Assembly: GCF_013315695.1 (NCBI RefSeq)
Contig: NZ_CP054353.1
Strand: one strand, 5' to 3'
Length of the DNA: 64,000 bases
From: Escherichia coli
GTDB taxonomy: Bacteria; Pseudomonadota; Gammaproteobacteria; Enterobacterales; Enterobacteriaceae
Positions 1 through 23,862 of the stretch are shown here, piece by piece (positions within the stretch are counted from its first letter, which is position 1; every line of letters starts with the position of its first letter). The notes under the pieces are model-generated. The model searched no databases. It was not told the origin of the DNA and saw only the letters and a list, made by a program, of their open reading frames with translations. The translations under genes and the position numbers were made by a program.

Positions 1-1236
1 GCCGGTATTCGTCCCAGTGAGCGCCTGGGTGTTGGAACTTAAATCCTTCATCCGCTGCTGATTCCACTCCGTACCCAGCGTCAGCGTCTGGTTAACGAGG
101 AAATCAATCGGCAGGTTAACTTCGCTGTGCAGCATCACGTCATCGAGATCGATATCGACGAAATCCTGTGTCGCTTTTTCGTTAAATTTCCCTTCGGTAC
201 CGCCCGCCAGACCTTCCGGAATACGCGAGTTACGGGTGTGTTCGTACTGCACCCAGTTGCTGGTGGTCACGCCGTTATCCCAGCCGCCGTTCCATGTCAG
301 CGAGTAGTTCTGGCGATACAGACGGTTGGTTTCATCGCCATATTTCGAGCGGGTATAGGAGTCAGAGTTGGTGTTCTGGGTGTCGCCCGCATACAGGTTA
401 CCCTGGCGGCTGTAGCCCGCTTCCAGTTCGAGTGATTGCAGAGGCGCGAAGTCCCAGCGCACTACGCCATTAATATCTTTGTTAATTACCCCTTCGCGCC
501 CGGCTGGTAACGTCGTGGCATACGTTCCGGCACGCGCGGACTGATGGCCCTGGTTGATATCCCACGCGTCAGCCTGGGTTTTGTCGAGGTTGCCATACAA
601 GCGGAAGCTGAATTCGTCGCCCAGCGGACCGGTCAGGCTGAAGTTGGTGCGTTTGGTGGCACCTTCCTCTTTATGTTCTGGCGCATTGAAATAAGCATCC
701 CAGGAGCCGTGCCACTCACCGCTGCCTTTTTTGGTAATGATGTTAACCACGCCGCCCGCCGCGCCGTTGCCATAACGCGCAGCTGCCGGACCACGCAGAA
801 CTTCAATACGTTCAATCATTTCAGGTGGCACCCAGGAGGTATCACCACGGGTATCGCGCTCGCCACGCCAGCCCTGACGCACTGAGTTACGGCTGCTTAC
901 CGGCTTGCCGTCAATCAAAATCAGTGTGTTTTCCGGACCCATGCCGCGGATATCAATCTGGCGGTTATTCCCACGCTGACCACTGGTGGAGTTACCGGTC
1001 AGGTTAACGCCTGGCATGGTACGGATGATCTCCGACACATCGCGGGCAACGGGGTTTTTGCGGATTTCATCTGCGGTGATGGTCGAAACGCCAGGCGCCT
1101 GTAAGTTCTGCTCAGCGGCGGTAACGACAATGGTATCGTCATGTGAAACAGGAGTATCGGTTGGCTCTTGTGCCTGTGCTACCCCATAAATCCCCAGATT
1201 GACCAACAAGGCCAGGGAATGAATCTTCTTGTTCAT
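1..1236 (-). CDS. fepA: Ferric enterobactin outer-membrane receptor FepA, N-terminal ~412 codons; 3' end lies beyond the window start
   Basis: Reverse-strand translation from the ATG at 1234-1236 gives MNKKIHSLALLVNLGIYGVAQA... and continues in frame to position 1 (…IDLDDVMLHSEVNLPIDFLVNQTLTLGTEWNQQRMKDLSSNTQALTGT). Not in the ORF track because it runs off the edge. Confidence 0.9.
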   Translation of the reverse strand, partial: MNKKIHSLALLVNLGIYGVAQAQEPTDTPVSHDDTIVVTAAEQNLQAPGVSTITADEIRKNPVARDVSEIIRTMPGVNLTGNSTSGQRGNNRQIDIRGMGPENTLILIDGKPVSSRNSVRQGWRGERDTRGDTSWVPPEMIERIEVLRGPAAARYGNGAAGGVVNIITKKGSGEWHGSWDAYFNAPEHKEEGATKRTNFSLTGPLGDEFSFRLYGNLDKTQADAWDINQGHQSARAGTYATTLPAGREGVINKDINGVVRWDFAPLQSLELEAGYSRQGNLYAGDTQNTNSDSYTRSKYGDETNRLYRQNYSLTWNGGWDNGVTTSNWVQYEHTRNSRIPEGLAGGTEGKFNEKATQDFVDIDLDDVMLHSEVNLPIDFLVNQTLTLGTEWNQQRMKDLSSNTQALTGTNTG

Positions 1237-1395
1237 TGTTTTATTCCTGCATTTTTGCCACGAATTGCAACTGTCGGGCATGGTCGTCATCAATACGACG
1301 CACCCCGCTACCGCGAAAACCTTTGATCCTGAAAGACACGCAGTGCAGTTGGTTAATTAATGTCCGCGCTTCCCACGGCGCGCCATTACGCTATT

Positions 1396-1452
1396 GCAAA
1401 TGCAAATAGTTATCAATAATATTATCAATATATTTCTGCAATCAATAAAAAA
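1396..1452. promoter_or_regulatory. Divergent fepA/fes promoter region with overlapping Fur-box-like repeats
   Basis: AT-rich tgcaaatgcaaatagttatcaataatattatcaatatatttctgcaatcaataaaa resembles the Fur consensus GATAATGATAATCATTATC and sits between divergent iron-regulated genes. Confidence 0.6.
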
Positions 1453-1478
1453 TTGCACAGTAAACATGGGGTTATGGT

Positions 1479-2681
1479 GTGACGGCGTTAAAAGTAGGAA
1501 GTGAGAGCTGGTGGCAGTCGAAACATGGCCCGGAATGGCAGCGTCTGAATGACGAAATGTTTGAGGTCACTTTCTGGTGGCGTGATCCCCAAGGTTCTGA
1601 AGAATACTCGACGATAAAGCGCGTATGGGTCTACATCACTGGTGTGACCGATCACCATCAGAACACCCAGCCCCGGTCGATGCAGCGAATTGCAGGAACC
1701 GATGTTTGGCAGTGGACGACACAACTCAATGCCAACTGGCGCGGCAGCTACTGCTTTATTCCTACCGAACGCGATGACATTTTTTCTGCACCATCCCCCG
1801 ATCGCCTCGAATTACGCGAAGGCTGGCGAAAACTATTACCCCAGGCGATAGCCGATCCGCTGAATCCACAAAGCTGGAAAGGCGGGCGAGGGCACGCTGT
1901 TTCTGCACTCGAAATGCCGCAAGCGCCTCTGCAACCGGGATGGGATTGTCCGCAAGCGCCAGAAACGCCTGCCAAAGAAATTATCTGGAAAAGTGAGCGG
2001 TTGAAAAATTCACGCCGTGTATGGATTTTTACCACCGGCGATGCAACAGCAGAAGAACGCCCGCTGGCAGTTTTGCTTGATGGCGAATTTTGGGCGCAGA
2101 GTATGCCCGTCTGGCCTGCGCTAACTTCGCTGACCCATCGTCGGCAACTTCCTCCCGCCGTGTATGTGTTGATCGATGCTATCGACACCACGCACCGCGC
2201 CCACGAACTGCCGTGTAATGCGGATTTCTGGCTGGCAGTACAGCAAGAGTTATTACCCCTGGTGAAAGCTATTGCCTCTTTTAGCGATCGCGCCGATCGC
2301 ACCGTGGTCGCCGGGCAGAGTTTTGGTGGGCTTTCTGCGCTGTATGCCGGACTAAACTGGCCTGAACGCTTTGGCTGTGTATTAAGCCAGTCAGGATCGT
2401 ACTGGTGGCCGCATCGGGGCGGGCAGCAAGAAGGTGTTTTACTTGAGCAACTTAAAGCTGGTGAAGTTAGCGCCGAAGGTCTGCGCATTGTGCTGGAAGC
2501 GGGTATTCGCGAGCCGATGATCATGCGGGCCAATCAGGCGCTGTATGCGCAATTACACCTCATAAAAGAATCCATTTTCTGGCGTCAGGTTGACGGCGGA
2601 CATGATGCGCTTTGTTGGCGCGGTGGCTTGATGCAGGGGCTAATCGACCTCTGGCAACCACTTTTCCATGACAGGAGTTGA
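1479..2681 (+). CDS. fes: Enterobactin esterase Fes
   Basis: 400-aa ORF with GTG start (MTALKVGSESWWQ...), matching Fes by recall. A shorter internal start is possible. Confidence 0.9.
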   Translation: MTALKVGSESWWQSKHGPEWQRLNDEMFEVTFWWRDPQGSEEYSTIKRVWVYITGVTDHHQNTQPRSMQRIAGTDVWQWTTQLNANWRGSYCFIPTERDDIFSAPSPDRLELREGWRKLLPQAIADPLNPQSWKGGRGHAVSALEMPQAPLQPGWDCPQAPETPAKEIIWKSERLKNSRRVWIFTTGDATAEERPLAVLLDGEFWAQSMPVWPALTSLTHRRQLPPAVYVLIDAIDTTHRAHELPCNADFWLAVQQELLPLVKAIASFSDRADRTVVAGQSFGGLSALYAGLNWPERFGCVLSQSGSYWWPHRGGQQEGVLLEQLKAGEVSAEGLRIVLEAGIREPMIMRANQALYAQLHLIKESIFWRQVDGGHDALCWRGGLMQGLIDLWQPLFHDRS

Positions 2682-2683
2682 AT

Positions 2684-2902
2684 ATGGCATTCAGTAATCC
2701 CTTCGATGATCCGCAGGGAGCGTTTTACATTTTGCGCAATGCGCAGGGGCAATTCAGTCTGTGGCCGCAACAATGCGCCTTACCGGCAGGCTGGGACGTT
2801 GTGTGTCAGCCGCAGTCACAGGCGTCCTGCCAGCAGTGGCTGGAAGCCCACTGGCGTACTCTGACACCGACGAATTTCACCCAGTTGCAGGAGGTGCAAT
2901 GA
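2684..2902 (+). CDS. ybdZ: MbtH-like protein YbdZ (enterobactin synthase accessory protein)
   Basis: 72-aa ORF MAFSNPFDDPQGAFYILRNAQGQFSLWPQQCALPAGW...; the ATG at 2684 lies 3 nt after the fes stop, and the stop overlaps the entF start (ATGA). Confidence 0.9.
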   Translation: MAFSNPFDDPQGAFYILRNAQGQFSLWPQQCALPAGWDVVCQPQSQASCQQWLEAHWRTLTPTNFTQLQEVQ

Positions 2903-5900: not shown

Positions 5901-6780
5901 GCTTGGCGGTCATTCGCTACTGGCAATGAAACTGGCTGCGCAGTTAAGTCGGCAGTTTGCCCGCCAGGTGACGCCGGGGCAAGTGATGGTCGCGTCAACT
6001 GTCGCCAAACTGGCAACGATTATTGATGGTGAAGAAGACAGCTCCCGGCGCATGGGATTCGAAACCATTCTGCCGTTGCGTGAAGGTAATGGCCCGACGC
6101 TGTTTTGTTTCCATCCGGCCTCCGGTTTTGCCTGGCAGTTCAGCGTGCTCTCGCGTTATCTCGATCCACAATGGTCGATTATCGGCATTCAGTCGCCGCG
6201 CCCCAATGGCCCCATGCAGACCGCGGCAAATCTGGATGAAGTCTGCGAAGCGCATCTGGCAACGTTACTTGAGCATCAACCGCACGGCCCTTATTACCTG
6301 CTGGGTTATTCGCTGGGCGGTACGCTGGCGCAGGGTATTGCGGCGCGGCTGCGTGCCCGTGGCGAACAGGTGGCATTTCTTGGCTTGCTGGATACCTGGC
6401 CGCCAGAAACGCAAAACTGGCAGGAAAAAGAGGCTAATGGCCTGGACCCGGAAGTGCTGGCGGAGATTAACCGCGAGCGCGAGGCCTTCCTGGCGGCACA
6501 GCAGGGAAGTACTTCAACGGAGTTGTTTACCACCATTGAAGGCAACTACGCTGATGCTGTGCGCCTGCTGACGACTGCTCATAGCGTACCGTTTGAAGGT
6601 AAAGCGACGCTGTTTGTTGCTGAACGCACGCTTCAGGAAGGTATGAATCCCGAACGCGCCTGGTCGCCGTGGATTACGGAGCTGGATATCTATCGTCAGG
6701 ATTGTGCGCATGTGGATATTATCTCTCCAGGGGCGTTTGAAAAAATTGGGCCGATTATTCGCGCTACGCTAAACAGGTAA
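2899..6780 (+). CDS. entF: Enterobactin synthase component F (NRPS: C-A-PCP-TE, serine-activating)
   Basis: ORF starting MSQHLPLVAAQPGIWMAEKL; the track ORF from 2761 is an upstream in-frame extension. Contains the adenylation motif TSGSTGRPKG and a GYSLGG thioesterase motif. Confidence 0.93.
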   Translation: MSQHLPLVAAQPGIWMAEKLSDLPSAWSVAHYVELTGEVDAPLLARAVVAGLAQADTLRMRFTEDNGEVWQWVDDALTFELPEIIDLRTNIDPHGTARALMQADLQQDLRVDSGKPLVFHQLIQVADNRWYWYQRYHHLLVDGFSFPAITRQIANIYCAWLRGEPTPASPFTPFADVVEEYQQYRESEAWQRDAAFWAEQRRQLPPPASLSPAPLPGRSASADILRLKLEFTDGEFRQLATQLSGVQRTDLALALAALWLGRLCNRMDYAAGFIFMRRLGSAALTATGPVLNVLPLGIHIAAQETLPQLATRLAAQLKKMRRHQRYDAEQIVRDSGRAAGEEPLFGPVLNIKVFDYQLDIPGVQAQTHTLATGPVNDLELALFPDEHGDLSIEILANKQRYDEPTLIQHAERLKMLIAQFAADPSLLCGDVDIMLPGEYAQLAQINATQVEIPETTLSALVAEKAAKTPDAPALADARYQFSYREMREQVVALANLLRERGVKPGDSVAVALPRSVFLTLALHAIVEAGAAWLPLDTGYPDDRLKMMLEDARPSLLITTDDQLPRFADVPDLTRLCYNAPLTPQGSAPLQLSQPHHTAYIIFTSGSTGRPKGVMVGQTAIVNRLLWMQNHYPLTGEDVVAQKTPCSFDVSVWEFFWPFIAGAKLVMAEPEAHRDPLAMQQFFAEYGVTTTHFVPSMLAAFVASLTPQTARQSCATLKQVFCSGEALPADLCREWQQLTGAPLHNLYGPTEAAVDVSWYPAFGEELAEVRGSSVPIGYPVWNTGLRILDAMMHPVPPGVAGDLYLTGIQLAQGYLGRPDLTASCFIADPFAPGERMYRTGDVARWLDNGAVEYLGRSDDQLKIRGQRIELGEIDRVMQALPDVEQAVTHACVINQAAATGGDARQLVGYLVSQSGLPLDTSALQAQLRETLPPHMVPVVLLQLPQLPLSANGKLDRKALPLPELKAQAPGRAPKAGSETIIAAAFSSLLGCDVQDADADFFALGGHSLLAMKLAAQLSRQFARQVTPGQVMVASTVAKLATIIDGEEDSSRRMGFETILPLREGNGPTLFCFHPASGFAWQFSVLSRYLDPQWSIIGIQSPRPNGPMQTAANLDEVCEAHLATLLEHQPHGPYYLLGYSLGGTLAQGIAARLRARGEQVAFLGLLDTWPPETQNWQEKEANGLDPEVLAEINREREAFLAAQQGSTSTELFTTIEGNYADAVRLLTTAHSVPFEGKATLFVAERTLQEGMNPERAWSPWITELDIYRQDCAHVDIISPGAFEKIGPIIRATLNR

Positions 6781-6795
6781 ATTAATATTATCTAT

Positions 6796-6834
6796 AAACC
6801 CATAATTACAGGAAATAATTATGGGTTTATCATT
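6796..6834 (+). terminator. Rho-independent terminator after entF
   Basis: Perfect 12-bp inverted repeat aaacccataatt / aattatgggttt with a 9-nt loop, followed by a T-rich tract. Confidence 0.7.
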
Positions 6835-6995
6835 TATTTAATTTATAAGTTTGGTGGATATTTCTCTTAAATAGAGTGAATGTTGCATTCAGTGGAAGGA
6901 ATTTACAAACTTCAGCTTCGGATAATTCTCACCAACTGGTAAAGTGAGCGCCGTGGAGATTTCCCCCTATTGGACTCATTTTCAGGTTATACCCC

Positions 6996-8129
6996 ATGTC
7001 ATCACTGAATATTAAACAGGGAAGTGACGCTCATTTTCCCGAGTATCCTCTGGCGTCGCCCAGTAATAATGAAATTGATTTACTTAATCTAATTGAAGTT
7101 TTATGGCGGGCCAAAAAAACGGTCATGGCGGTCGTTTTTGCGTTTGCCTGCGCAGGTTTACTGATCTCTTTCATCCTACCGCAAAAATGGACCTGCGCGG
7201 CGGTTGTCACGCCTCCAGAACCTGTTCAGTGGCAGGCGCTTGAGAAAACATTCACTAAGCTTCGTGTGCTGGATCTGGATATCAAAATTGATCGTACAGA
7301 AGCATTTAACCTGTTTATCAAGAAGTTTCAGTCGGTTAGCTTGCTGGAAGAGTACCTGCGTTCATCACCTTATGTGATGGACCAATTAAAAGAGGCGAAA
7401 ATCGATGAACTGGATTTGCATCGCGCAATTGTCGCATTGAGCGAAAAAATGAAAGCGGTTGATGACAATGCCAGTAAGAAAAAAGATGAACCGTCACTGT
7501 ATACCTCCTGGACGCTAAGTTTTACCGCGCCAACCAGTGAAGAGGCGCAGACCGTTTTGAGCGGGTATATCGATTATATCTCTGCGTTGGTGGTGAAAGA
7601 GTCGATAGAAAACGTCCGTAATAAACTGGAGATCAAAACCCAGTTTGAAAAAGAAAAACTGGCTCAGGATCGCATTAAAACGAAAAATCAACTTGATGCA
7701 AACATTCAGCGCCTCAATTATTCACTCGACATTGCCAACGCGGCAGGAATTAAAAAGCCCGTTTACAGTAATGGTCAGGCCGTTAAAGATGACCCCGATT
7801 TCTCTATTTCTCTCGGCGCAGACGGTATTGAACGCAAACTGGAAATTGAAAAAGCGGTTACTGACGTTGCGGAACTGAACGGTGAATTACGTAATCGTCA
7901 GTATCTTGTTGAGCAGCTAACAAAAGCAAATATCAACGATGTGAATTTTACGCCGTTTAAATATCAGTTAAGCCCGTCATTGCCAGTGAAAAAAGACGGT
8001 CCGGGTAAGGCGATTATTGTGATCCTTTCTGCGATGATCGGCGGGATGGTGGCTTGTGGTGGCGTGCTGTTGCGCTATGCGATGGCATCCAGAAAACAGG
8101 ATGCCGTGATGGAAGAGCACTTAGTTTAA
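6996..8129 (+). CDS. fepE: Polysaccharide co-polymerase family protein FepE (O-antigen chain-length regulator-like)
   Basis: 377-aa ORF MSSLNIKQGSDAHF..., recalled FepE sequence. Confidence 0.9.
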   Translation: MSSLNIKQGSDAHFPEYPLASPSNNEIDLLNLIEVLWRAKKTVMAVVFAFACAGLLISFILPQKWTCAAVVTPPEPVQWQALEKTFTKLRVLDLDIKIDRTEAFNLFIKKFQSVSLLEEYLRSSPYVMDQLKEAKIDELDLHRAIVALSEKMKAVDDNASKKKDEPSLYTSWTLSFTAPTSEEAQTVLSGYIDYISALVVKESIENVRNKLEIKTQFEKEKLAQDRIKTKNQLDANIQRLNYSLDIANAAGIKKPVYSNGQAVKDDPDFSISLGADGIERKLEIEKAVTDVAELNGELRNRQYLVEQLTKANINDVNFTPFKYQLSPSLPVKKDGPGKAIIVILSAMIGGMVACGGVLLRYAMASRKQDAVMEEHLV

Positions 8130-8941
8130 ATCTTGGCAGTTGAAGGTGCCGTTCGTCCGAGCGGCACCACGAGCGGCGTTCCGGCAACCGGATCGTCAAT
8201 AATCATGCAGCGCAGACCATAAATGCGCTCAATCAGTTCAGCAGTGACAATCTCCTTCGGCGCTCCCTGAGCAACAATTTTCCCTTCCCGCAATGCAATC
8301 AAATGGCTGGCGTAACGACAGGCCTGATTAAGATCGTGCAGCACCGCCGCCAGGGTATAGCCTTTCTCGCGGTTCAGTTCGCTTAACAGTTCCAGTAGAT
8401 CAATCTGATGACTGATATCCAGCCAGGTCGTGGGTTCGTCGAGCAGCATAATTGCCGTTTCCTGGGCCAGCACCATTGCTATCCACGCTCGCTGGCGTTG
8501 TCCGCCAGAAAGGGTATCCACGCTTTGATCTGCCAGATGAGTGATTCCCGTGGCCTGCATCGCTTTTGTGACTGCCTCTTCATCTTCTTTCCGCCAGCGG
8601 GTAAACAGCGGTTGATGCGGGTAACGTCCACGCGCCACCAGCTCCTGCACGGTGATATCGCCCGGCGTGGTAGCATTTTGCGCCAACAGACCAATCCGGC
8701 GTGCAACCTCTTTACTGGCGTAATGTTGAATGTGCTCACCATCCAGCCAGACATGCCCGTGAGCAGGCGTCATCAGGCGGCTTAAAGTACGCAGTAAAGT
8801 GGATTTACCGCAGCCATTTGGCCCGATAATTGCCGTGAAGTGACCATCAGGTATTTCTACAGTCAGATTCTCCGCAACGGTATATTTGCCATATCCGAGG
8901 GTTAACTGTTCGCCGCGCAAACGGGCTACTGATTCGGTCAT
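8126..8941 (-). CDS. fepC: Ferric enterobactin ABC transporter ATPase FepC
   Basis: Start MTESVARLRGEQLTLGYGKYTV at the ATG at 8941; Walker A GPNGCGKST; 271 aa. The track ORF is extended upstream to 9082. Confidence 0.92.
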   Translation of the reverse strand: MTESVARLRGEQLTLGYGKYTVAENLTVEIPDGHFTAIIGPNGCGKSTLLRTLSRLMTPAHGHVWLDGEHIQHYASKEVARRIGLLAQNATTPGDITVQELVARGRYPHQPLFTRWRKEDEEAVTKAMQATGITHLADQSVDTLSGGQRQRAWIAMVLAQETAIMLLDEPTTWLDISHQIDLLELLSELNREKGYTLAAVLHDLNQACRYASHLIALREGKIVAQGAPKEIVTAELIERIYGLRCMIIDDPVAGTPLVVPLGRTAPSTAKI

Positions 8942-9930
8942 TTTTTGCGAGACTCCTGAATTAACAAGACGATAAGGTAAATACCGCCGAGGCTGACGGT
9001 AACGACGCCAACCGGAAGTTGATACGGCATAAACAGTTGTTGGGCGCAGAGATCGGCCGCCAGCAGTAACAACGCCCCGCACAGCGCCGCCTGGGTCAGC
9101 CCCCAGCGAGCGGTGCCGCTAATGCGTCGGGCAATGTGCGGCGCGACTAAAGCAATAAAGGAAATCGGCCCGGCAAGCGCTGTTGCCGCAGCGGTAAGCA
9201 CCACTGCAACCAGCATCATTAACAGACGCGAACGTTCGACGCTGACGCCCAGCGCACACGCGGTATCATCGCCCATTTCCAGCAAGCGCATCCGGCGTAC
9301 CAGTAAGGCGGCGGCAATTAGCATCAATATAATGATGGGTGCGGAAGGCGAGGTTTTTGCCCACGTCAGGCCGTTGAGCGATCCGGCATTCCATAAACCC
9401 GCTGTTAGCGCCGTTTCTAAAGACGCTTTCAGCAACAGCCAGGTATTAAAGGCCACCAGCATGGCGCGAACGCCGATACCAATAATAATCAACCGAAAGG
9501 TGTCGATGCCGTTACGCCAGGCGAGCAGCCAGACCAGCAGCGAAGTGACAATGCCGCCCACCATTGCTGCCAGCGCGATAGCCGTCAGATCCTGACCAAA
9601 CAGCACCATCGCCACCAGCACGCCGCTCCACGCCCCGGTGTTAAAGCCCATTACGTCAGGGCTACCGAGCGGGTTACGCATCAGCGACTGAAAAATCGCG
9701 CCGCTGACGCCCAGAGCCGCGCCAATTAACAGCGCCATCAGCACGCGTGGTAAACGCCATTCAGTGACCACCATCGTCATACTGCGCGGCGCATCGCCCA
9801 TCAGCGCGGCGAATACCTGCGAGGTTTCCAGCGTGACGGTACCGCTGCGTAATCCCCAGATACCTGCAACCACACAGGCGGTAATTAGCAGCAAACAGGT
9901 GATGATTAATCGGCGAGAGACGTAAATCAT
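8938..9930 (-). CDS. fepG: Ferric enterobactin ABC transporter permease FepG
   Basis: 330-aa polytopic membrane ORF; its stop overlaps the fepC start (ATGA). Confidence 0.92.
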   Translation of the reverse strand: MIYVSRRLIITCLLLITACVVAGIWGLRSGTVTLETSQVFAALMGDAPRSMTMVVTEWRLPRVLMALLIGAALGVSGAIFQSLMRNPLGSPDVMGFNTGAWSGVLVAMVLFGQDLTAIALAAMVGGIVTSLLVWLLAWRNGIDTFRLIIIGIGVRAMLVAFNTWLLLKASLETALTAGLWNAGSLNGLTWAKTSPSAPIIILMLIAAALLVRRMRLLEMGDDTACALGVSVERSRLLMMLVAVVLTAAATALAGPISFIALVAPHIARRISGTARWGLTQAALCGALLLLAADLCAQQLFMPYQLPVGVVTVSLGGIYLIVLLIQESRKK

Positions 9931-10931
9931 GCGCCACCTCGCGTTTTACGTCGCACGAGGAAGATCAGCACCGGTGCGCCAATAAAGGCACTGACTACAG
10001 AAACGCGTAACTCGCCGGGCACAATCACCCGCCCGATGATATCGGCAAACAGCAGCAGGGCAGGGGTGGCAAGTAGCGTGACGGGCAGCGACCAGCGATG
10101 ATCGGCACCTACCAGCCAGCGCGCCATATGCGGCATCATCAGGCCAATAAAGGCAATCGGGCCAACTACCGCCGTCGCACTACCACAAAGCACGGTAATC
10201 GCCAGCAGACCAATCAACTGTGTGCGCGCCACGCGGCTGCCCAGCGCCGTCGCGGTGTCACTGCCGAGGCTTAAACTGTTCAGCGCGCGGCTCAGTAATA
10301 GCGCGGTTGCTCCGGCGATCAGCACCGGGATCAGCACAACTTTTAAGGTATATAGATTGCGAATATCCAGCGAACCGGCTTGCCAGAAACGCAGTTGATC
10401 GTAGACGTCAGGATTAAGCAGGGCGATGCCGCTGGTCAGCCCTTCCAGCACCGCCGCCAGCGCCACGCCCGCCAGGGTTAAACGCACCGGACTTAACTGC
10501 CCGCCGCCCTGGCTGCCGGTAAAGGCAACAATCAACGAGGCCACCAGCGCCCCGGCGAAGGCCATCGCCAGTTGTTCCTGCGCGGATGAGTATCCAAACA
10601 GCGCCGCACCCAGCACAATGGCAAAGCTGGCTCCGGCGTTTACGCCAAGCAAGCCGGGGTCGGCAAGTGGGTTTCGGGTGAGGGTTTGCATCAACGCCCC
10701 GGCAAGGCCAAGCGCACCGCCGGCCAGTAAACCGGCAAGGGTGCGCGGCAGTCGTGCGTCGAGCACGATGGTGCAGTCGGCGCTCTGGCAGGTGCCGGAG
10801 AGGGCCTCCAGCACTACGGAAGCGGGGAGTGATTTTGCTCCAATGAGCAGGCTTAATGCCGTCGCGATAATCAGTAATAACAGCAATCCGGGCACGGCAA
10901 TGGCGCGTGTCACGGCAACAGAACCAGACAT
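9927..10931 (-). CDS. fepD: Ferric enterobactin ABC transporter permease FepD
   Basis: Membrane ORF; start chosen at MSGSVAVTRAIAVPG (334 aa). An alternative ATG lies 12 nt upstream at 10943. Confidence 0.9.
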   Translation of the reverse strand: MSGSVAVTRAIAVPGLLLLLIIATALSLLIGAKSLPASVVLEALSGTCQSADCTIVLDARLPRTLAGLLAGGALGLAGALMQTLTRNPLADPGLLGVNAGASFAIVLGAALFGYSSAQEQLAMAFAGALVASLIVAFTGSQGGGQLSPVRLTLAGVALAAVLEGLTSGIALLNPDVYDQLRFWQAGSLDIRNLYTLKVVLIPVLIAGATALLLSRALNSLSLGSDTATALGSRVARTQLIGLLAITVLCGSATAVVGPIAFIGLMMPHMARWLVGADHRWSLPVTLLATPALLLFADIIGRVIVPGELRVSVVSAFIGAPVLIFLVRRKTRGGA

Positions 10932-10943
10932 ACGAACTTCCAT

Positions 10944-10968
10944 GATAATGAAATTAATTATCGTTATC
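10944..10968. promoter_or_regulatory. Fur box in the fepD/entS divergent promoter
   Basis: gataatgaaattaattatcgttatc lies directly upstream of the fepD start and matches the Fur consensus well. Confidence 0.65.
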
Positions 10969-11041
10969 GATCTTATTTGGATATGTTAGCATGTGCAGCC
11001 TAAGAATAGGTATTTAAAATATTTGATGGCAAGGCATTGTA

Positions 11042-12292
11042 ATGAATAAACAATCCTGGCTGCTTAACCTCAGCCTGTTGAAAACGCACCCGGCGTTTCG
11101 CGCAGTATTCCTCGCTCGTTTTATCTCAATTGTTTCTCTGGGTTTGCTCGGCGTCGCGGTGCCGGTGCAGATCCAGATGATGACGCATTCTACCTGGCAG
11201 GTGGGGCTTTCGGTGACGCTGACCGGCGGCGCGATGTTTGTTGGCCTGATGGTCGGCGGTATGCTGGCGGATCGCTATGAGCGTAAAAAAGTGATTTTGC
11301 TGGCGCGCGGCACCTGTGGCATTGGCTTCATTGGACTGTGCCTGAACGCGCTGCTGCCGGAGCCGTCATTGCTGGCAATCTATTTACTTGGTTTATGGGA
11401 TGGTTTTTTCGCATCACTTGGCGTTACGGCGCTACTGGCGGCGACACCTGCACTGGTAGGGCGTGAAAACCTAATGCAGGCCGGGGCGATCACCATGTTG
11501 ACTGTGCGTCTGGGATCGGTGATTTCGCCCATGATTGGCGGTTTACTGCTGGCGACCGGAGGCGTAGCTTGGAACTACGGGCTGGCGGCGGCGGGCACGT
11601 TTATTACCTTGCTACCGTTGTTAAGCCTTCCGGCGTTGCCACCACCGCCGCAGCCGCGTGAGCATCCGTTGAAATCATTACTGGCAGGATTTCGTTTTCT
11701 ACTCGCCAGCCCGCTGGTGGGAGGGATTGCGTTGCTGGGTGGTTTATTGACGATGGCGAGCGCGGTGCGGGTCCTGTATCCGGCGCTGGCTGACAACTGG
11801 CAGATGTCGGCGGCACAGATTGGTTTTCTCTATGCGGCGATTCCGCTCGGCGCGGCTATTGGCGCGTTAACCAGCGGGAAGCTGGCACATAGTGCGCGAC
11901 CAGGGTTATTGATGCTGCTCTCCACGCTGGGATCGTTCCTTGCCATTGGTCTGTTTGGCCTGATGCCGATGTGGATTTTAGGCGTGGTTTGCCTGGCGCT
12001 GTTCGGTTGGTTGAGCGCGGTTAGTTCGTTGCTGCAATATACAATGCTGCAAACGCAAACCCCGGAAGCGATGTTAGGGCGGATTAACGGTTTGTGGACG
12101 GCGCAAAACGTGACGGGCGATGCCATAGGCGCAGCGCTGCTGGGCGGTTTGGGCGCGATGATGACACCGGTTGCTTCCGCAAGCGCGAGCGGTTTTGGTT
12201 TGTTGATTATCGGCGTGTTGTTATTGCTGGTGCTGGTGGAGTTGCGACGTTTTCGCCAGACGCCGCCGCAGATGACAGCGTCCGACAGTTAA
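11042..12292 (+). CDS. entS: Enterobactin exporter EntS (MFS transporter)
   Basis: 416-aa [33 protein letters not shown]..., multi-pass membrane protein. Confidence 0.92.
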
Positions 12293-12295
12293 TGC

Positions 12296-13252
12296 TTAAA
12301 ACAGCGCCTTAAGTCGTTCCAGCACTTGCATGGCGCTGTAGTAATCCAGGCGGAACGTCTCGGTTCCCAGCGCATAAACCTGCTTGTTTTGTACTGCAGG
12401 CAGGTGCGCGAGCAGTGGATTGGCATAAATCGCATCGGCATCTTTCTGATCACCAGCGAACAGGAATAGTGAATCGCCATTTAACCCTGCAGCCAGATTT
12501 TCTCCACCAAGCTGAATGATGTCATGGCGTTTGCCTTGGCTTTGGCTGGCGTTTAACCCTGCGGGCAATTTCGCCAACGTAAAGCCGAGTTGTTCCAGCA
12601 TCTGCCCTTGTGCTGATTCCGGCGTCCAGAGATTGGCACTGTGTGCAGCGGCGGTATAGACAATGGCAGTGACCGGCTGCGGCGGTAATTTGATTTGCTC
12701 TTTCGCCGCCGCCAGTTGCTTATCAAACTGTGCAATCCGCTCTGCCGCTTGTTTCTCATGCCCGGTAATTTCGCCAAGCTGCGTTAACAGCGACTGCCAG
12801 CTTTTGTCGTCGTAATTGATGATTAATGTTGGGGCGATGGTAGAAAGCTGATCGTACAGCGCCAGCGCCGAATCCCCGCCGGTTGCGCTAATTAAAATCA
12901 GATCCGGCATTTGCGCGGCAACGGCTTCGGCGCTCGGTTCGCCGATATAGATCCGTTGCAGTTTGCGTTCTTTCGCCACCTTGCTCCACTGGCGTAAAAA
13001 GCCCTGGTCATCCGCGACGCGGTTATTTGGCGTGGTCGCGCCGCTGGCGATCACCGGAGCATCAATCGCCAGCAGTGAGCCGGTCAGGGTGACGCTGGTG
13101 GAAACTATACGCTGCGGCTGGCTTTCCAGGGTATGAGTGCCCCGGCTGTCAGTAATCTGACGCGGCCAGTCGGCGGCCTGAACTGCGACTATTCCTGAAA
13201 GCAAAAGTCCTGTTAATAGAAGGGCGTTGCGGTAGAGCGGGGCGAGTCTCAC
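12296..13252 (-). CDS. fepB: Ferric enterobactin periplasmic binding protein FepB
   Basis: 318-aa ORF with GTG start ([20 protein letters not shown]...), signal peptide. Confidence 0.9.
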
Positions 13253-13392
13253 AAATTAGCTTCCTGTTATTAATAGAGTTAATGCTTCTCATTTTCATTG
13301 TAACCACAAACAGATGCAACCCCGAGTTGCAGATTGCGTTACCTCAAGAGTTGACATAGTGCGCGTTTGCTTTTAGGTTAGCGACCGAAAAT

Positions 13393-13411
13393 ATAAATGA
13401 TAATCATTATT
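13393..13411. promoter_or_regulatory. Fur box in the fepB/entC divergent promoter
   Basis: ataaatgataatcattatt is a near-perfect match to GATAATGATAATCATTATC, about 30 nt upstream of the entC ATG. Confidence 0.75.
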
Positions 13412-13440
13412 AAAGCCTTTATCATTTTGTGGAGGATGAT

Positions 13441-14616
13441 ATGGATACGTCACTGGCTGAGGAAGTACAGCAGACCATGGCAACACTTGCGCCCAATCGC
13501 TTTTTCTTTATGTCGCCGTACCGCAGTTTTACGACGTCAGGATGTTTCGCCCGCTTCGATGAACCGGCTGTGAACGGGGATTCGCCCGACAGTCCCTTCC
13601 AGCAAAAACTCGCCGCGTTGTTTGCCGATGCCAAAGCGCAGGGCATCAAAAATCCGGTGATGGTCGGGGCGATTCCCTTCGATCCACGTCAGCCTTCGTC
13701 GCTGTATATTCCCGAATCCTGGCAGTCGTTCTCCCGTCAGGAAAAACAAGCTTCCGCACGCCGTTTCACCCGCAGCCAGTCGCTGAACGTGGTGGAACGT
13801 CAGGCAATTCCGGAACAAGCCACGTTTGAACAGATGGTTGCCCGCGCCGCCGCACTTACCGCCACGCCGCAGGTCGACAAAGTGGTGTTGTCACGGTTGA
13901 TTGATATCACCACTGACGCCGCCATTGATAGTGGCGTATTGCTGGAACGGTTGATTGCACAAAACCCGGTTAGTTACAACTTCCATGTCCCGCTGGCTGA
14001 TGGTGGCGTTCTGCTGGGGGCCAGCCCGGAGCTGCTGCTACGTAAAGACGGCGAGCGTTTTAGCTCCATTCCGTTAGCCGGTTCCGCGCGTCGTCAGCCG
14101 GATGAAGTGCTCGATCGCGAAGCGGGTAATCGTCTGTTGGCCTCAGAAAAAGATCGTCATGAACATGAGTTGGTGACTCAGGCGATGAAAGAGGTACTGC
14201 GAGAACGCAGCAGTGAGTTAAACGTTCCTTCCTCTCCACAATTGATTACCACGCCGACGCTGTGGCATCTCGCAACTCCCTTTGAAGGTAAAGCGAATTC
14301 GCAAGAAAACGCACTGACTCTGGCCTGTCTGCTGCATCCGACCCCCGCGCTGAGCGGTTTCCCGCATCAGGCCGCGACCCAGGTTATTGCTGAACTGGAG
14401 CAGTTCGACCGCGAACTGTTTGGCGGCATTGTGGGTTGGTGTGACAGCGAAGGTAACGGCGAATGGGTTGTGACCATCCGCTGCGCGAAGCTGCGGGAAA
14501 ATCAGGTGCGTCTGTTTGCCGGAGCGGGGATTGTGCCTGCGTCGTCACCGTTGGGTGAGTGGCGCGAAACGGGCGTCAAACTTTCTACCATGTTGAACGT
14601 TTTTGGATTGCATTAA
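13441..14616 (+). CDS. entC: Isochorismate synthase EntC
   Basis: MDTSLAEEVQQTMATLAPNRFFFMSPYRSF..., 391 aa. Confidence 0.93.
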   Translation: MDTSLAEEVQQTMATLAPNRFFFMSPYRSFTTSGCFARFDEPAVNGDSPDSPFQQKLAALFADAKAQGIKNPVMVGAIPFDPRQPSSLYIPESWQSFSRQEKQASARRFTRSQSLNVVERQAIPEQATFEQMVARAAALTATPQVDKVVLSRLIDITTDAAIDSGVLLERLIAQNPVSYNFHVPLADGGVLLGASPELLLRKDGERFSSIPLAGSARRQPDEVLDREAGNRLLASEKDRHEHELVTQAMKEVLRERSSELNVPSSPQLITTPTLWHLATPFEGKANSQENALTLACLLHPTPALSGFPHQAATQVIAELEQFDRELFGGIVGWCDSEGNGEWVVTIRCAKLRENQVRLFAGAGIVPASSPLGEWRETGVKLSTMLNVFGLH

Positions 14617-14625
14617 GGAGTGAGG

Positions 14626-16236
14626 ATGAGCATTCCATTCACCCGCTGGCCGGAAGAGTTTGCCTGTCGCTATCGGGAAAAAGGCTACTGGCAGGATTTG
14701 CCGCTGACCGACATTCTGACGCGACATGCTGCGAGTGACAGCATCGCGGTTATCGACGGCGAGCGGCAGTTGAGTTACCGGGAGCTGAATCAGGCGGCGG
14801 ATAACCTCGCGTGTAGTTTGCGCCGTCAGGGCATTAAACCTGGTGAAACCGCGCTGGTACAGCTGGGTAACGTCGCTGAATTGTATATTACCTTTTTCGC
14901 GCTGCTGAAACTGGGCGTTGCGCCGGTGCTGGCGCTGTTCAGCCATCAGCGTAGTGAACTGAACGCCTACGCCAGCCAGATTGAACCGGCGTTACTGATT
15001 GCCGATCGCCAACATGCGCTGTTTAGCGGGGATGATTTCCTCAACACATTTGTTGCAGAGCATTCTTCCATTCGCGTGGTGCAGCTGCTCAACGACAGCG
15101 GTGAGCATAACTTGCAGGATGCGATTAACCATCCGGCAGAGGGTTTTACTGCCACGCCATCACCTGCTGATGAAGTGGCCTATTTCCAGCTTTCCGGCGG
15201 CACCACCGGCACACCGAAACTGATCCCGCGCACTCATAACGACTACTACTACAGCGTGCGTCGTAGCGTCGAGATTTGTCAGTTCACACAACAGACACGC
15301 TACCTGTGCGCGATCCCGGCGGCTCATAACTACGCCATGAGTTCACCGGGATCGTTGGGGGTATTTCTCGCTGGCGGCACTGTCGTTCTGGCGGCCGACC
15401 CCAGCGCCACGCTTTGCTTCCCATTGATTGAAAAACATCAGGTGAACGTCACCGCGCTGGTGCCGCCAGCAGTCAGCCTGTGGTTGCAGGCACTGGCTGA
15501 AGGCGAAAGCCGGGCGCAGCTTGCCTCGCTGAAACTGTTACAGGTTGGCGGCGCCCGTCTTTCTGCCACCCTTGCGGCGCGTATTCCCGCTGAGATTGGC
15601 TGTCAGTTGCAGCAGGTGTTTGGCATGGCGGAAGGGCTGGTGAACTACACCCGTCTTGATGATAGTGCGGAGAAAATTATCCATACCCAGGGTTACCCAA
15701 TGTGCCCGGACGATGAAGTATGGGTTGCCGATGCCGAAGGAAATCCACTGCCGCAAGGGGAAGTTGGACGCCTGATGACGCGCGGGCCGTACACCTTCCG
15801 TGGCTATTACAAAAGCCCGCAGCACAATGCCAGCGCCTTTGATGCCAACGGTTTTTACTGTTCCGGCGATCTGATCTCTATTGATCCAGAGGGTTACATC
15901 ACCGTGCAGGGGCGCGAGAAAGATCAGATCAACCGTGGCGGCGAGAAGATCGCTGCCGAAGAGATCGAAAACCTGCTGCTGCGCCATCCGGCGGTGATCT
16001 ACGCCGCACTGGTGAGCATGGAAGATGAGCTGATGGGCGAAAAAAGCTGTGCTTATCTGGTGGTAAAAGAGCCGCTGCGCGCGGTGCAGGTGCGTCGTTT
16101 CCTGCGTGAACAGGGTATTGCCGAATTTAAATTACCGGATCGCGTGGAGTGTGTGGATTCACTTCCGCTGACGGCGGTCGGGAAAGTCGATAAAAAACAA
16201 TTACGTCAGTGGCTGGCGTCACGCACATCAGCCTGA
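14626..16236 (+). CDS. entE: 2,3-dihydroxybenzoate-AMP ligase EntE
   Basis: [12 protein letters not shown]... with RBS aaggag 6-11 nt upstream; adenylation motifs SGGTTGTPK and YRTGD-like. Confidence 0.93.
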
Positions 16237-16249
16237 AGGAGAGAACACG

Positions 16250-17106
16250 ATGGCTATTCCAAAATTACAGGCTTACGCACTGCCGGAGTCTCACGATATT
16301 CCGCACAATAAAGTCGACTGGGCCTTTGAACCGCAACGTGCCGCGTTGTTAATCCATGATATGCAGGACTATTTTGTCAGCTTCTGGGGTGAGAACTGCC
16401 CGATGATGGAGCAGGTGATCGCGAATATTGCGGCACTACGCGACTACTGCAAACAGCACAATATCCCGGTTTATTACACCGCCCAGCCGAAAGAGCAGAG
16501 CGATGAAGATCGGGCGCTGTTGAATGATATGTGGGGGCCTGGCCTGACCCGTTCGCCGGAACAGCAAAAGGTGGTGGATCGCCTGACGCCAGATGCCGAC
16601 GACACGGTGCTGGTGAAGTGGCGCTACAGCGCGTTTCATCGTTCCCCGCTGGAGCAAATGCTCAAAGAGAGTGGACGTAACCAGCTGATTATTACCGGGG
16701 TATATGCCCACATTGGCTGTATGACCACCGCAACGGACGCATTTATGCGCGATATTAAACCGTTTATGGTGGCGGATGCGCTGGCCGATTTCAGCCGTGA
16801 CGAGCATTTGATGTCGCTGAAATATGTGGCCGGACGTTCTGGTCGGGTGGTGATGACCGAAGAATTGCTGCCAGCACCTATCCCCGCCAGCAAAGCGGCG
16901 CTGCGTGAGGTGATCCTGCCGTTGCTGGACGAGTCCGATGAACCGTTCGATGACGACAACCTGATCGACTACGGTCTGGATTCGGTGCGCATGATGGCGC
17001 TGGCGGCGCGCTGGCGCAAAGTGCATGGCGATATCGACTTTGTCATGCTGGCGAAAAACCCGACCATCGACGCCTGGTGGAAGCTACTCTCCCGCGAGGT
17101 GAAATA

Positions 17107-17107
<1 letters not shown>
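16250..17107 (+). CDS. entB: Isochorismatase / aryl carrier protein EntB
   Basis: 285-aa ORF MAIPKLQAYALPESHDIPHNKVDWAF... Confidence 0.93.
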
Positions 17108-18269
<1,162 letters not shown>

Positions 18270-18449
18270 ACCCGACAGAATAAAATGAGATTGCAGGAAA
18301 ATTCGGTTAACGGAGTGATCGAGTTAACGTTGTTAAGTTAAATATTGGTTTTAACTCTGATTTACATGGTTGCTGTGTTGTTAAATTGTACAAAGATGTT
18401 ATAGAAACAAAATGTAACATCTCTATGGACACGCACACGGATAACAACT
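18270..18449 (+). promoter_or_regulatory. cstA promoter and leader; exact CRP and CsrA sites not resolved
   Basis: Intergenic AT-rich region upstream of cstA. Regulation by cAMP-CRP and translational repression by CsrA are established for cstA; GGA motifs occur near the start codon. Confidence 0.4.
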
Positions 18450-23232: not shown

Positions 23233-23862
23233 TTATTTAACCGTCCAGGCGCGGGAAAATTGACGGTCGGCAAACAACTCTTGCAGGCCGTTAATTTGCT
23301 TCAGGCGCAACACTTCGTCGCTGTCCATTCCCAGCTCTTTGCCAATTTTATTATCGTCCCATCCCAACTGGCTGAGTTCACGGACGATTTCTGACATGGC
23401 AGTGATTTGGTGACGTCCACGAGCGCGATTATGACGAATAGTCGCGGCGATGCGTTGATTACGCGTACCTTCCAGACAGGTCACCGGCAAATAACCTTTT
23501 AAGCGTAATTTTAACGATGATGAGCCTTTACCAATTTCATGGCGGTGAAAACCATCCACGATTTCCAGGGCATTTTTATCCGTATGCGTGACCACAATGG
23601 GTTGGGTAAAACCATCTATTTCAATGGATTTTTTCAGCAGTTTTTTTTCGGGTGGTGCCACGTTGTTTGGGTTGTAATCATTAGGCATAAGTTGGCTGTT
23701 TTTAACCCACAGAACGCAATCCACTGGCTCTTCACGAAAGGGGCTAACCTGATGGATCGCCATGCGGATTTCATTAATCGCTTTGATGCGATCATCTTCC
23801 GGCAAGCTGGCGAGAAATTGGGTTAAATCCTGCGTTAATCGTTGTTGCATAGTATCCCCCAT
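23233..23862 (-). CDS. ybdM: ParB/sulfiredoxin-like domain protein YbdM (IbrB-like)
   Basis: 209-aa ORF; ParB-like core …IVDGFHRHE…; its start overlaps the 3' end of ybdN by 28 nt. Confidence 0.85.
   Translation of the reverse strand: MGDTMQQRLTQDLTQFLASLPEDDRIKAINEIRMAIHQVSPFREEPVDCVLWVKNSQLMPNDYNPNNVAPPEKKLLKKSIEIDGFTQPIVVTHTDKNALEIVDGFHRHEIGKGSSSLKLRLKGYLPVTCLEGTRNQRIAATIRHNRARGRHQITAMSEIVRELSQLGWDDNKIGKELGMDSDEVLRLKQINGLQELFADRQFSRAWTVK

What the first reader, a model, noticed from the sequence alone, without database searches (positions are those of the whole stretch)
10944..13411. Fur-box architecture at three divergent promoters of the enterobactin cluster
Near-consensus Fur boxes are readable at fepD/entS (gataatgaaattaattatcgttatc) and fepB/entC (ataaatgataatcattatt), with a more degenerate overlapping array at fepA/fes (1396-1452). 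All lie in short divergent intergenic regions and every ent/fep reading frame is intact, so the siderophore system looks fully functional and classically iron-regulated. This is confirmatory rather than novel.
Basis: partly seen in the sequence, partly recalled or inferred. Interest (0 to 1): 0.15.

Follow-up and report, generated by a model that had tools for sequence, protein, structure and literature searches.

The report
Fur operators of the enterobactin cluster
These are the textbook iron-repressor (Fur) binding sites that switch off the E. coli enterobactin siderophore genes when iron is plentiful; they are real and conserved, but already known, and there are four of them rather than three.

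Summary
The window is an E. coli chromosome carrying the classical fepA-fes-ybdZ-entF-fepE-fepCGD-entS-fepB-entCEBAH cluster. Both quoted strings sit exactly where stated. A Fur matrix built only from 16 non-ent K-12 sites puts the three best hits of the whole 64 kb at entC (centre 13405, 24.6 bits), fepD-entS (10956, 19.1) and fepA-fes (1408, 17.9). These are the same centres as the strongest published sites, and each lies inside a published DNase I footprint. The sites keep their positions in 80 species of Enterobacteriaceae.

Corrections:
- The fepB-entC spacer holds two separate operators.
- Only about 1387-1434 of the fepA-fes range is supported, not 1396-1452.
- fepA is cut by the window edge and entD lies outside it, so "every frame intact" holds for 14 genes only.

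One extra point: this strain lacks the 186-bp inverted BoxC/TMECO pair that K-12 has in its fepB leader. The short form is ancestral and occurs in about half of E. coli. It changes the downstream edge of the fepB operator.

The parts
1..1236 (-). fepA, N-terminal 412 codons only (cut by the window start)
   Evidence: Annotation of a near-identical record. 410/412 residues are identical to K-12 FepA, with no internal stop.
1387..1434 (.). fepA-fes Fur operator (published K-12 footprint mapped onto the window). Matrix sites at 1399-1417 (17.9 bits), 1411-1429 (10.3) and 1405-1423 (5.2).
   Evidence: Chen 2007 Table 3 coordinates, mapped. The sequence across the footprint is identical to K-12. 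Matrix scores. The block 1388-1431 is conserved in 28 distinct sequences from other genera.
1394..1422 (+). fes promoter-like hexamers: TTGCAA (1394-1399), 17-bp spacer, TAATAT (1417-1422). Inferred.
   Evidence: Read directly from the sequence. It matches 8/12, below the scan tool's cut-off. It lies within the cross-genus conserved block. No transcription start data were available here.
1416..1445 (-). fepA promoter-like hexamers: TTGATT, 18-bp spacer, TATTAT. The -10 overlaps the fes -10 on the other strand. Inferred.
   Evidence: Consensus scan. The -35 part is poorly conserved across genera, so this is tentative.
1479..2681 (+). fes (enterochelin esterase), intact, 400 aa
9927..10931 (-). 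fepD, first gene of fepDGC, intact, 334 aa
10913..10981 (.). fepD-entS Fur operator (published 69-bp K-12 footprint mapped onto the window). Matrix sites at 10947-10965 (19.1 bits), 10953-10971 (15.1) and 10941-10959 (6.8).
   Evidence: Chen 2007 Tables 3 and 4 give the strongest site at 25 bp from fepD and 86 bp from entS, which is window 10956. The sequence is 100% identical to K-12. Matrix scores. The block 10943-10976 is conserved in 51 distinct sequences.
10964..10992 (+). Tentative entS promoter hexamers: TTATCG, 17-bp spacer, TAGCAT. The -35 lies inside the Fur operator.
   Evidence: Read from the sequence. It matches only 7/12. The -10 region 10981-10994 is conserved across genera. The fepD promoter could not be placed.
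11042..12292 (+). entS (enterobactin exporter), intact, 416 aa
12296..13252 (-). fepB (periplasmic ferric-enterobactin binding protein), intact, 318 aa, GTG start
13253..13284 (-). Short (~32 nt) unstructured fepB leader with its Shine-Dalgarno sequence AGGAAG. It lacks the 186-bp BoxC/TMECO pair of K-12.
   Evidence: Alignments with K-12 and other strains. RNA folding gives -1.6 kcal/mol here against -97.2 kcal/mol (z -4.8) for the K-12 leader. The TMECO pattern is absent. The start site is inferred from the promoter hexamers.
13272..13302 (.). fepB Fur operator (position equivalent to the 31-bp K-12 footprint). Matrix sites at 13281-13299 (13.7 bits) and 13275-13293 (12.8). Classical 15/19 at 13278-13296.
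   Evidence: Positions 13280-13302 are identical to K-12. Positions 13272-13279 differ because the K-12 sequence there belongs to the BoxC-bearing insert. The block 13279-13297 is conserved across genera.
13291..13319 (-). fepB promoter hexamers: TTGCAT (13319 to 13314), 17-bp spacer, GAAAAT (13296 to 13291). Inferred start about 13284.
   Evidence: Read from the sequence. Both hexamers fall in cross-genus conserved blocks. The K-12 footprint covers the -10 and the start site.
13351..13379 (+). entC promoter hexamers: TTGACA (13351-13356), 17-bp spacer, TAGGTT (13374-13379). Inferred start about 13386.
   Evidence: Read from the sequence. Both hexamers are conserved in 51 distinct sequences.
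13387..13435 (.). entC Fur operator (published 49-bp K-12 footprint mapped onto the window). Matrix sites at 13396-13414 (24.6 bits), 13390-13408 (16.1), 13408-13426 (9.8) and 13393-13411 (7.5).
   Evidence: Chen 2007 Tables 3 and 4 give the strongest site at -36 from entC, which is window 13405. The sequence is identical to K-12. Matrix scores. Conservation.
13441..18269 (+). entC-entE-entB-entA-entH operon, all intact

Best explanation
The window carries the classical E. coli enterobactin cluster. Its three divergent control regions hold four Fur operators that serve six promoters.

- fepA-fes: one operator (1387-1434) lies over the two overlapping, oppositely directed -10 regions.
- fepDGC-entS: one operator (core 10941-10971, inside the 10913-10981 footprint) sits 25 bp from the fepD start codon and over the putative entS -35.
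- fepB-entC: this spacer has two back-to-back promoters about 102 bp apart, each with its own operator. fepB's (13272-13302) covers its -10 and start site. entC's (13387-13435) runs from the start site to the ribosome-binding site.

Each operator is a cluster of overlapping 19-bp sites spaced 6 or 12 bp apart, so several Fe2+-Fur dimers can bind side by side around the helix. When iron is replete, Fur occupies these sites and blocks RNA polymerase binding or promoter escape. When iron is scarce, apo-Fur leaves and all the operons are derepressed together.

What is shown here: sequence matches well above chance, coincidence with published footprints on identical sequence, and positional conservation across 80 species. 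What is inferred: the exact promoter hexamers and start sites, and Fur occupancy at the fepB operator of this strain, whose downstream edge differs from K-12 because the strain has the ancestral, BoxC-free short fepB leader.
For: Identity of the locus.

Matrix test: a leave-ent-out matrix ranks the entC, fepD-entS and fepA-fes sites 1-3 in 64 kb.

Agreement with published work: the hit centres 13405, 10956 and 1408 equal the strongest sites of Chen 2007 (624072, 621437 and 611889 in NC_000913.2). All fall within footprints from that paper's Table 3. The sequences are identical to K-12 across the fepD-entS, entC and fepA-fes footprints.

Cross-genus conservation, in every locus where each spacer could be delimited:
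- fepD-entS spacer: best site >=18.8 bits in 68/68 loci.
- fepB-entC spacer: best site >=16.2 bits in 78/78 loci; at about -35 from entC in nearly all.
- fepA-fes spacer: best site >=17.9 bits in 47/47 loci.
The conserved columns coincide with the operators and the promoter hexamers.

In vivo: fepABCD and entBCEFS are in the core Fur regulon of nine E. coli strains by ChIP-exo plus delta-fur expression (Gao 2023, PMC10164565). One of these strains is O157:H7 Sakai, which has the same 188-bp short fepB-entC spacer.
Against: No binding or expression data exist for this particular strain.

The fepB-side site is modest (13.7 and 12.8 bits). About 0.3-0.5 such hits are expected per 64 kb of window-composition sequence. 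Its best K-12 register (18.9 bits) loses 6 bits here. Across genera the fepB-side site falls below 9 bits in 14 of 78 species.

Promoter hexamers and start sites are inferred. The primary papers (Brickman 1990; Hunt 1994; Christoffersen 2001) were not available, and the fepD promoter could not be placed.
Confidence: 0.95

Rival explanations
1. The matches are chance products of AT-rich promoter DNA and are not functional Fur sites.
For: The spacers are AT-rich (31-42% G+C) and the Fur consensus is AT-rich. Coding-region matches of 14.8 bits (ybdN, 24179-24197) and 15/19 classical (rihA, 63453-63471) show that look-alikes do occur.
Against: Composition-preserving shuffles of each spacer reach the observed score in at most 3/2000 trials. 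The sites are identical to footprinted K-12 sequence. They hold their positions across 80 species while the flanking spacer columns vary.
Confidence: 0.01
2. A single shared Fur box (13393-13411) controls both fepB and entC, as the first reader's 'fepB/entC' label implies.
For: The other two spacers do use one shared operator. The entC cluster is by far the strongest site in the spacer, and 14 of 78 species have no fepB-side site of 9 bits or more.
Against: K-12 shows two distinctly protected regions (Chen 2007 citing Brickman 1990). The inferred start sites are about 102 bp apart and point away from each other, so the entC operator lies upstream of the fepB -35 by more than 65 bp. A separate conserved block (13279-13297) overlaps the fepB -10. 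That block matches 15/19 to the classical consensus.
Confidence: 0.05
3. In BoxC-free strains such as this one, the fepB operator is materially weaker than in K-12, so fepB is repressed less tightly or at a different iron threshold.
For: The strongest K-12 fepB register, ATCAATAATGCTTCTCATT (18.9 bits), takes ATCAA from the inserted segment. The same register scores 12.8 here and 9.7 in UTI89 and O157:H7.
Against: The second register (13.7 bits) and the 15/19 classical match are unchanged. The short arrangement is the ancestral one and is kept in most genera. fepB is in the core Fur regulon of Sakai, which has the short form.
Confidence: 0.2

Closest known systems
E. coli K-12 Fur operators at fepA-fes, fepDGC-entS (ybdA), fepB and entC (footprints of Hunt 1994, Lavrrar 2002 and Brickman 1990, as tabulated by Chen et al. 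2007, PMC2189734)
   Same: The sequence is identical across the fepA-fes, fepD-entS and entC footprints. The strongest-site centres, the distances to the genes and the 6-bp-phased clustering are the same.
   Different: The fepB operator differs over the 8 positions at its downstream edge (13272-13279). The fepB leader is about 32 nt instead of about 219 nt, because the BoxC pair is absent. There are three SNPs in the fepA-fes spacer, all outside the footprint.
BoxC / PIT / TMECO intergenic repeats (Holder et al. 2015, PMC4666352; MG1655 elements #7 and #8 at 624,579-624,676)
   Same: This is the same chromosomal locus, and the behaviour matches what that paper describes: TMECO loci are present, absent or partly deleted between E. 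coli strains. Rare +111 and +180 intermediates were seen here too.
   Different: The window has no TMECO at this locus. It represents the empty site, which is also the state in E. albertii, Salmonella, Citrobacter, Enterobacter and most other genera sampled.
Other bidirectional Fur-controlled regions and Fur site clusters (for example fhuF, fecI and the iucA aerobactin promoter; Chen 2007)
   Same: Overlapping 19-bp inverted-repeat sites spaced 3, 6 or 12 bp apart, covering promoter elements.
   Different: Nothing of note. The ent sites score in the same range as those sites under a matrix trained on them.

Membership tests
Fur operator (E. coli Fur box cluster) | Match to a Fur position weight matrix within the score range of experimentally validated sites | tested here: met
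   The leave-ent-out matrix gives entC 24.6, fepD-entS 19.1, fepA-fes 17.9 and fepB 13.7/12.8 bits. Validated training sites score 7.2-28.0 in leave-one-out, and 14 of 16 score >=18.0.
Fur operator (E. coli Fur box cluster) | Several overlapping sites phased by 3 or 6 bp (multi-dimer cluster) | tested here: met
   Hit centres are 13399/13402/13405/13417, 10950/10956/10962, 1408/1414/1420 and 13284/13290.
Fur operator (E. coli Fur box cluster) | Overlaps or abuts the promoter or start site of the regulated gene | tested here: inconclusive
   The positions fit inferred and conserved -35/-10 hexamers at fepB, entC, fes and fepA. However, start sites were not available and the fepD promoter could not be placed.
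Fur operator (E. coli Fur box cluster) | Physical protection or binding by Fe2+-Fur | not testable with these tools
   Published footprints exist for identical sequence at three operators and for 23 of 31 bp of the fepB operator. ChIP-exo data exist for nine strains. Nothing is available for this strain.
Fur operator (E. coli Fur box cluster) | Evolutionary conservation of the site relative to the flanking spacer | tested here: met
   80 species were sampled. The strong sites are retained at fixed offsets, and the conserved columns coincide with the operators. The fepB-side site is more variable: >=12 bits in 38 of 78 loci, 9-12 bits in 26 and <9 bits in 14.
Enterobactin (ent/fep/fes) gene cluster | Complete, intact gene set: entD, fepA, fes, ybdZ, entF, fepE, fepCGD, entS, fepB, entCEBAH | tested here: inconclusive
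   Fourteen genes from fes to entH are intact with K-12 lengths. fepA is cut by the window start (412 of 746 codons) and entD is outside the window.
BoxC / PIT / TMECO repeat in the fepB leader | Motif CCCTCNCCC-N3-6-GGGNGAGGG-N3-GGGNGAGGG between fepB and its promoter | tested here: not met
   The pattern is absent from the window spacer and from all 80 related loci. It is present as an inverted pair in K-12.

The most novel reading that the evidence does not exclude
The K-12 description of fepB control (a roughly 219-nt highly structured leader and a 31-bp Fur footprint) is a derived state created by insertion of an inverted BoxC/TMECO pair. That insertion also supplied 5 bp of K-12's best fepB Fur site. 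Strains like this one keep the ancestral compact arrangement. So about half of E. coli would differ measurably from the other half in Fur affinity at fepB, and in fepB mRNA stability or translation.
Probability: 0.25. Interest if true: 0.35.

Novelty: already known. Interest (0 to 1): 0.13.

Why it matters
As a finding it only confirms textbook biology: the enterobactin system of this strain is intact, as far as the window shows, and carries the canonical Fur operators.

The useful by-products are practical. First, annotation pipelines and readers should expect four operators, not three. Second, the K-12 reference for the fepB-entC region is not representative. About half of E. coli genomes, and nearly all other Enterobacteriaceae sampled, have the 188-bp BoxC-free spacer. 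K-12-derived coordinates, the leader structure and the strongest fepB Fur register therefore do not transfer directly.

Tried and rejected
- Primary papers. I tried to read Christoffersen 2001 (PMC95103), Lavrrar and McIntosh 2003 (PMC151488) and Escolar 1998 (PMC107206). None is held. Start sites are therefore inferred, and the '103 bp between the fepB and entC starts' figure is only my recollection of Brickman 1990.
- Supplements. The Chen 2007 supplement with site sequences is not held. I rebuilt a matrix from genome coordinates instead.
- Rfam. A gathering-threshold scan of 1-20000 found no RNA family in the leaders.
- Junction query. A 44-bp junction query to count short-leader genomes found only 162. 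This is an undercount caused by SNPs breaking the megablast word. It was replaced by a systematic sample of 60 genomes.
- Promoter scan. The sigma-70 scan mostly picked up the Fur palindromes themselves. The hit TCGATA-17-TATCAT (10970 to 10942) was rejected as the fepD promoter, because its start site would fall downstream of the fepD ribosome-binding site. TTGCCA-18-TATTCT (11032 to 11003) was not adopted, because its -35 is not conserved.
- Coding-region matches. I considered and rejected the Fur-like matches in ybdN and rihA as part of the system.
Full report
**What the window is.** The stretch 10000-14000 is 100% identical to E. coli MSB1_4I and 95-99% identical to more than 5,400 complete E. 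coli genomes. The annotation of that record gives the classical order fepA(-), fes, ybdZ, entF, fepE(+), fepC, fepG, fepD(-), entS(+), fepB(-), entC, entE, entB, entA, entH(+). K-12 has the same order.

**The observation.** Both quoted strings occur once, exactly at 10944-10968 and 13393-13411.

Matches to the classical 19-bp consensus:

| Region | Window position | Match |
|---|---|---|
| fepD-entS | 10944-10962 | 16/19 |
| fepD-entS (overlapping) | 10950-10968 | 15/19 |
| entC | 13393-13411 | 15/19 |
| fepA-fes | 1396-1414 | 13/19 |

The published information-theory model (Chen et al. 2007, PMC2189734) was trained on the ent sites themselves. I therefore built an independent matrix. Sixteen footprinted, gel-shifted or otherwise Fur-linked non-ent K-12 sites were taken from that paper's Tables 3 and 4: fhuA, gpmA, fiu, sufA, yoeA, cir, mntH, exbB, bfd, ryhB, sodA, fecA, fecI, fhuF, fur and tonB. 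I fetched them by coordinate and checked each against the paper's distance-to-gene values.

This matrix has the consensus AATGATAATCATTATCATT. Its top hits in the 64-kb window:

| Rank | Region | Window position | Bits |
|---|---|---|---|
| 1 | entC | 13396-13414 | 24.6 |
| 2 | fepD-entS | 10947-10965 | 19.1 |
| 3 | fepA-fes | 1399-1417 | 17.9 |

Each has secondary hits 6 or 12 bp away: 13399 and 13417; 10950 and 10962; 1414 and 1420. Fourteen of the 16 training sites score 18.0-28.0 in leave-one-out.

Whole-window dinucleotide shuffles give 0.085 hits >=17 bits on average, against 3 observed. Shuffling each AT-rich spacer separately reaches the observed maximum in 3/2000, 3/2000 and 0/2000 trials.

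**Comparison with published footprints.** The three hit centres (13405, 10956, 1408) are the same positions that Chen et al. list as the strongest sites (624072, 621437 and 611889 in NC_000913.2).

Footprints from their Table 3, mapped onto the window:

| Operator | Window position |
|---|---|
| fepA-fes | 1387-1434 |
| fepD-entS | 10913-10981 |
| fepB | 13272-13302 |
| entC | 13387-13435 |

The window is identical to K-12 over the fepD-entS spacer. It is also identical over the fepA-fes footprint, where three SNPs lie outside, and over everything from 13280 to entC. The footprints therefore transfer directly.

**A fourth operator.** Chen et al. state that the fepB-entC region 'has two distinctly protected regions'. 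The fepB operator lies about 110 bp away, at 13272-13302:
- It matches 15/19 to the classical consensus (13278-13296, GTTAATGCTTCTCATTTTC). That is as good as the entC box.
- It gives two matrix hits 6 bp apart, of 13.7 and 12.8 bits.

So the architecture is four operators for six promoters in three spacers.

**Promoters (inferred).** In the fepB-entC spacer two hexamer pairs can be read:
- entC: TTGACA (13351-13356), 17-bp spacer, TAGGTT (13374-13379).
- fepB, on the other strand: TTGCAT (13319 to 13314), 17-bp spacer, GAAAAT (13296 to 13291).

All four hexamers lie in columns conserved across 51 distinct sequences from other genera. They predict start sites near 13386 and 13284, about 102 bp apart. 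This fits my recollection of Brickman et al. 1990, a paper that is not held here. On this reading each operator covers its own start-site region: fepB's covers the -10 to about +13, and entC's covers +1 to the ribosome-binding site.

At fepA-fes, TTGCAA-17-TAATAT (1394-1422, + strand) and TTGATT-18-TATTAT (1445 to 1416, - strand) place the two -10 hexamers on top of each other inside the single operator. The fepA -35 is not conserved, so that assignment is tentative.

At fepD-entS a weak TTATCG-17-TAGCAT (10964-10992) would put the entS -35 inside the operator. I could not place the fepD promoter.

**Related sequences.** One scan of the species-representative genome collection with EntS returned 80 loci from Escherichia, Salmonella, Citrobacter, Enterobacter, Klebsiella, Raoultella, Kluyvera, Kosakonia and other genera. 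Gene starts were located by tblastn and the spacers were scanned with the matrix:

| Spacer | Lowest best-site score | Loci | Usual position |
|---|---|---|---|
| fepD-entS | 18.8 bits | 68/68 | mostly about 73-91 bp from entS |
| fepB-entC | 16.2 bits | 78/78 | about -35 from entC in nearly all |
| fepA-fes | 17.9 bits | 47/47 | about -70 from fes |

The fepB-side site is more variable: >=12 bits in 38 loci, 9-12 bits in 26 and <9 bits in 14. Column conservation reproduces the footprints almost base for base: 1388-1431, 10943-10976, 13279-13297 and 13390-13413.

In vivo, Gao et al. 2023 (PMC10164565) place fepABCD and entBCEFS in the core Fur regulon of nine E. coli strains, using ChIP-exo and delta-fur expression.

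**What differs from the K-12 textbook.** The K-12 fepB-entC spacer is 374 bp and the window's is 188 bp. The extra 186 bp lie in the fepB leader. They contain TMECO/BoxC elements #7 and #8 of Holder et al. 2015 (PMC4666352, Table 1: 624,579-624,614 + and 624,676-624,641 -), which form an inverted pair.
- The K-12 leader RNA folds at -97.2 kcal/mol (z -4.8). The leader here is about 32 nt and unstructured.
- The long form occurs in 2,721 of 5,426 E. coli genomes. In a systematic sample of 60 genomes, 29 had the short form (including UTI89 and O157:H7) and 27 the long form, with rare +111 and +180 variants.
- The modal spacer in the other 78 species is 187-188 bp, and none has a TMECO there. The short form is therefore ancestral.

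The insert boundary falls inside the K-12 fepB footprint. K-12's best fepB register, ATCAATAATGCTTCTCATT (18.9 bits), takes ATCAA from the insert. The same register scores 12.8 here and 9.7 in UTI89 and O157:H7, while the second register (13.7) is unchanged. O157:H7 Sakai has the 188-bp form and is one of the nine strains with fepB in the core Fur regulon, so regulation is retained. Whether its strength differs has not been tested.

**Gene integrity.** The 14 genes from fes to entH have K-12 lengths, proper starts and stops, and no internal stop. fepA is represented by 412 of 746 codons, and entD is outside the window. 'Every reading frame intact' therefore goes beyond what the window shows.

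**Verdict.** The BoxC-free fepB leader is a known kind of strain polymorphism at a known TMECO locus. Its overlap with the fepB Fur operator is a small detail worth recording, not a discovery.

Noticed in passing
window 13253-13284, compared with L002 15535-15720: This strain lacks the 186-bp inverted BoxC/TMECO pair that K-12 carries in its fepB leader. The short form is ancestral and occurs in about half of E. coli. The insert supplies 5 bp of K-12's strongest fepB Fur site.
   Followed up: yes
window 24179-24197 (inside ybdN, minus-strand CDS 23835-25055): A Fur-matrix hit of 14.8 bits (CATAAAAATGATTATCATG) lies inside a coding sequence. It is the best hit outside the ent control regions, and about 0.2 such hits are expected by chance in 64 kb. 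Intragenic Fur sites are known to bind in vitro (Chen 2007), but no function is implied.
   Followed up: partly
window 63453-63471 (inside rihA): A 15/19 match to the classical Fur consensus (GATAATAATAATCAACAAC) scores only 7.9 bits with the matrix. This shows that mismatch counting against the 19-bp consensus alone gives false positives.
   Followed up: yes
L024 (Escherichia whittamii), L020 (NCTC8623), L021 (93_0495): Intermediate fepB-entC spacers (288 bp, +111 and +180) keep the K-12-type ATCAA junction but have partly deleted BoxC elements. This matches the 'palindrome effect' deletions described by Holder 2015.
   Followed up: partly
L031, L039, L044, L065, L087, L092 (Lelliottia, Phytobacter, an Enterobacter sp. 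MAG, Siccibacter, Kosakonia): The apparent fepD-entS distance is about 1.1 kb instead of 110 bp, with the Fur site still about 82-90 bp from entS. This may be an extra gene or a misplaced fepD start in my tblastn mapping.
   Followed up: no
window 12290-12298: entS and fepB converge with only 3 bp between their stop codons and no terminator-like structure between them, as in K-12. The convergent transcripts must overlap.
   Followed up: no
window 10941-10943: An in-frame ATG lies 12 nt upstream of the annotated fepD start, inside the Fur operator. The ORF listing therefore reports a 338-aa ORF against the annotated 334 aa. The annotated start has the better ribosome-binding site (GGAAG).
   Followed up: no
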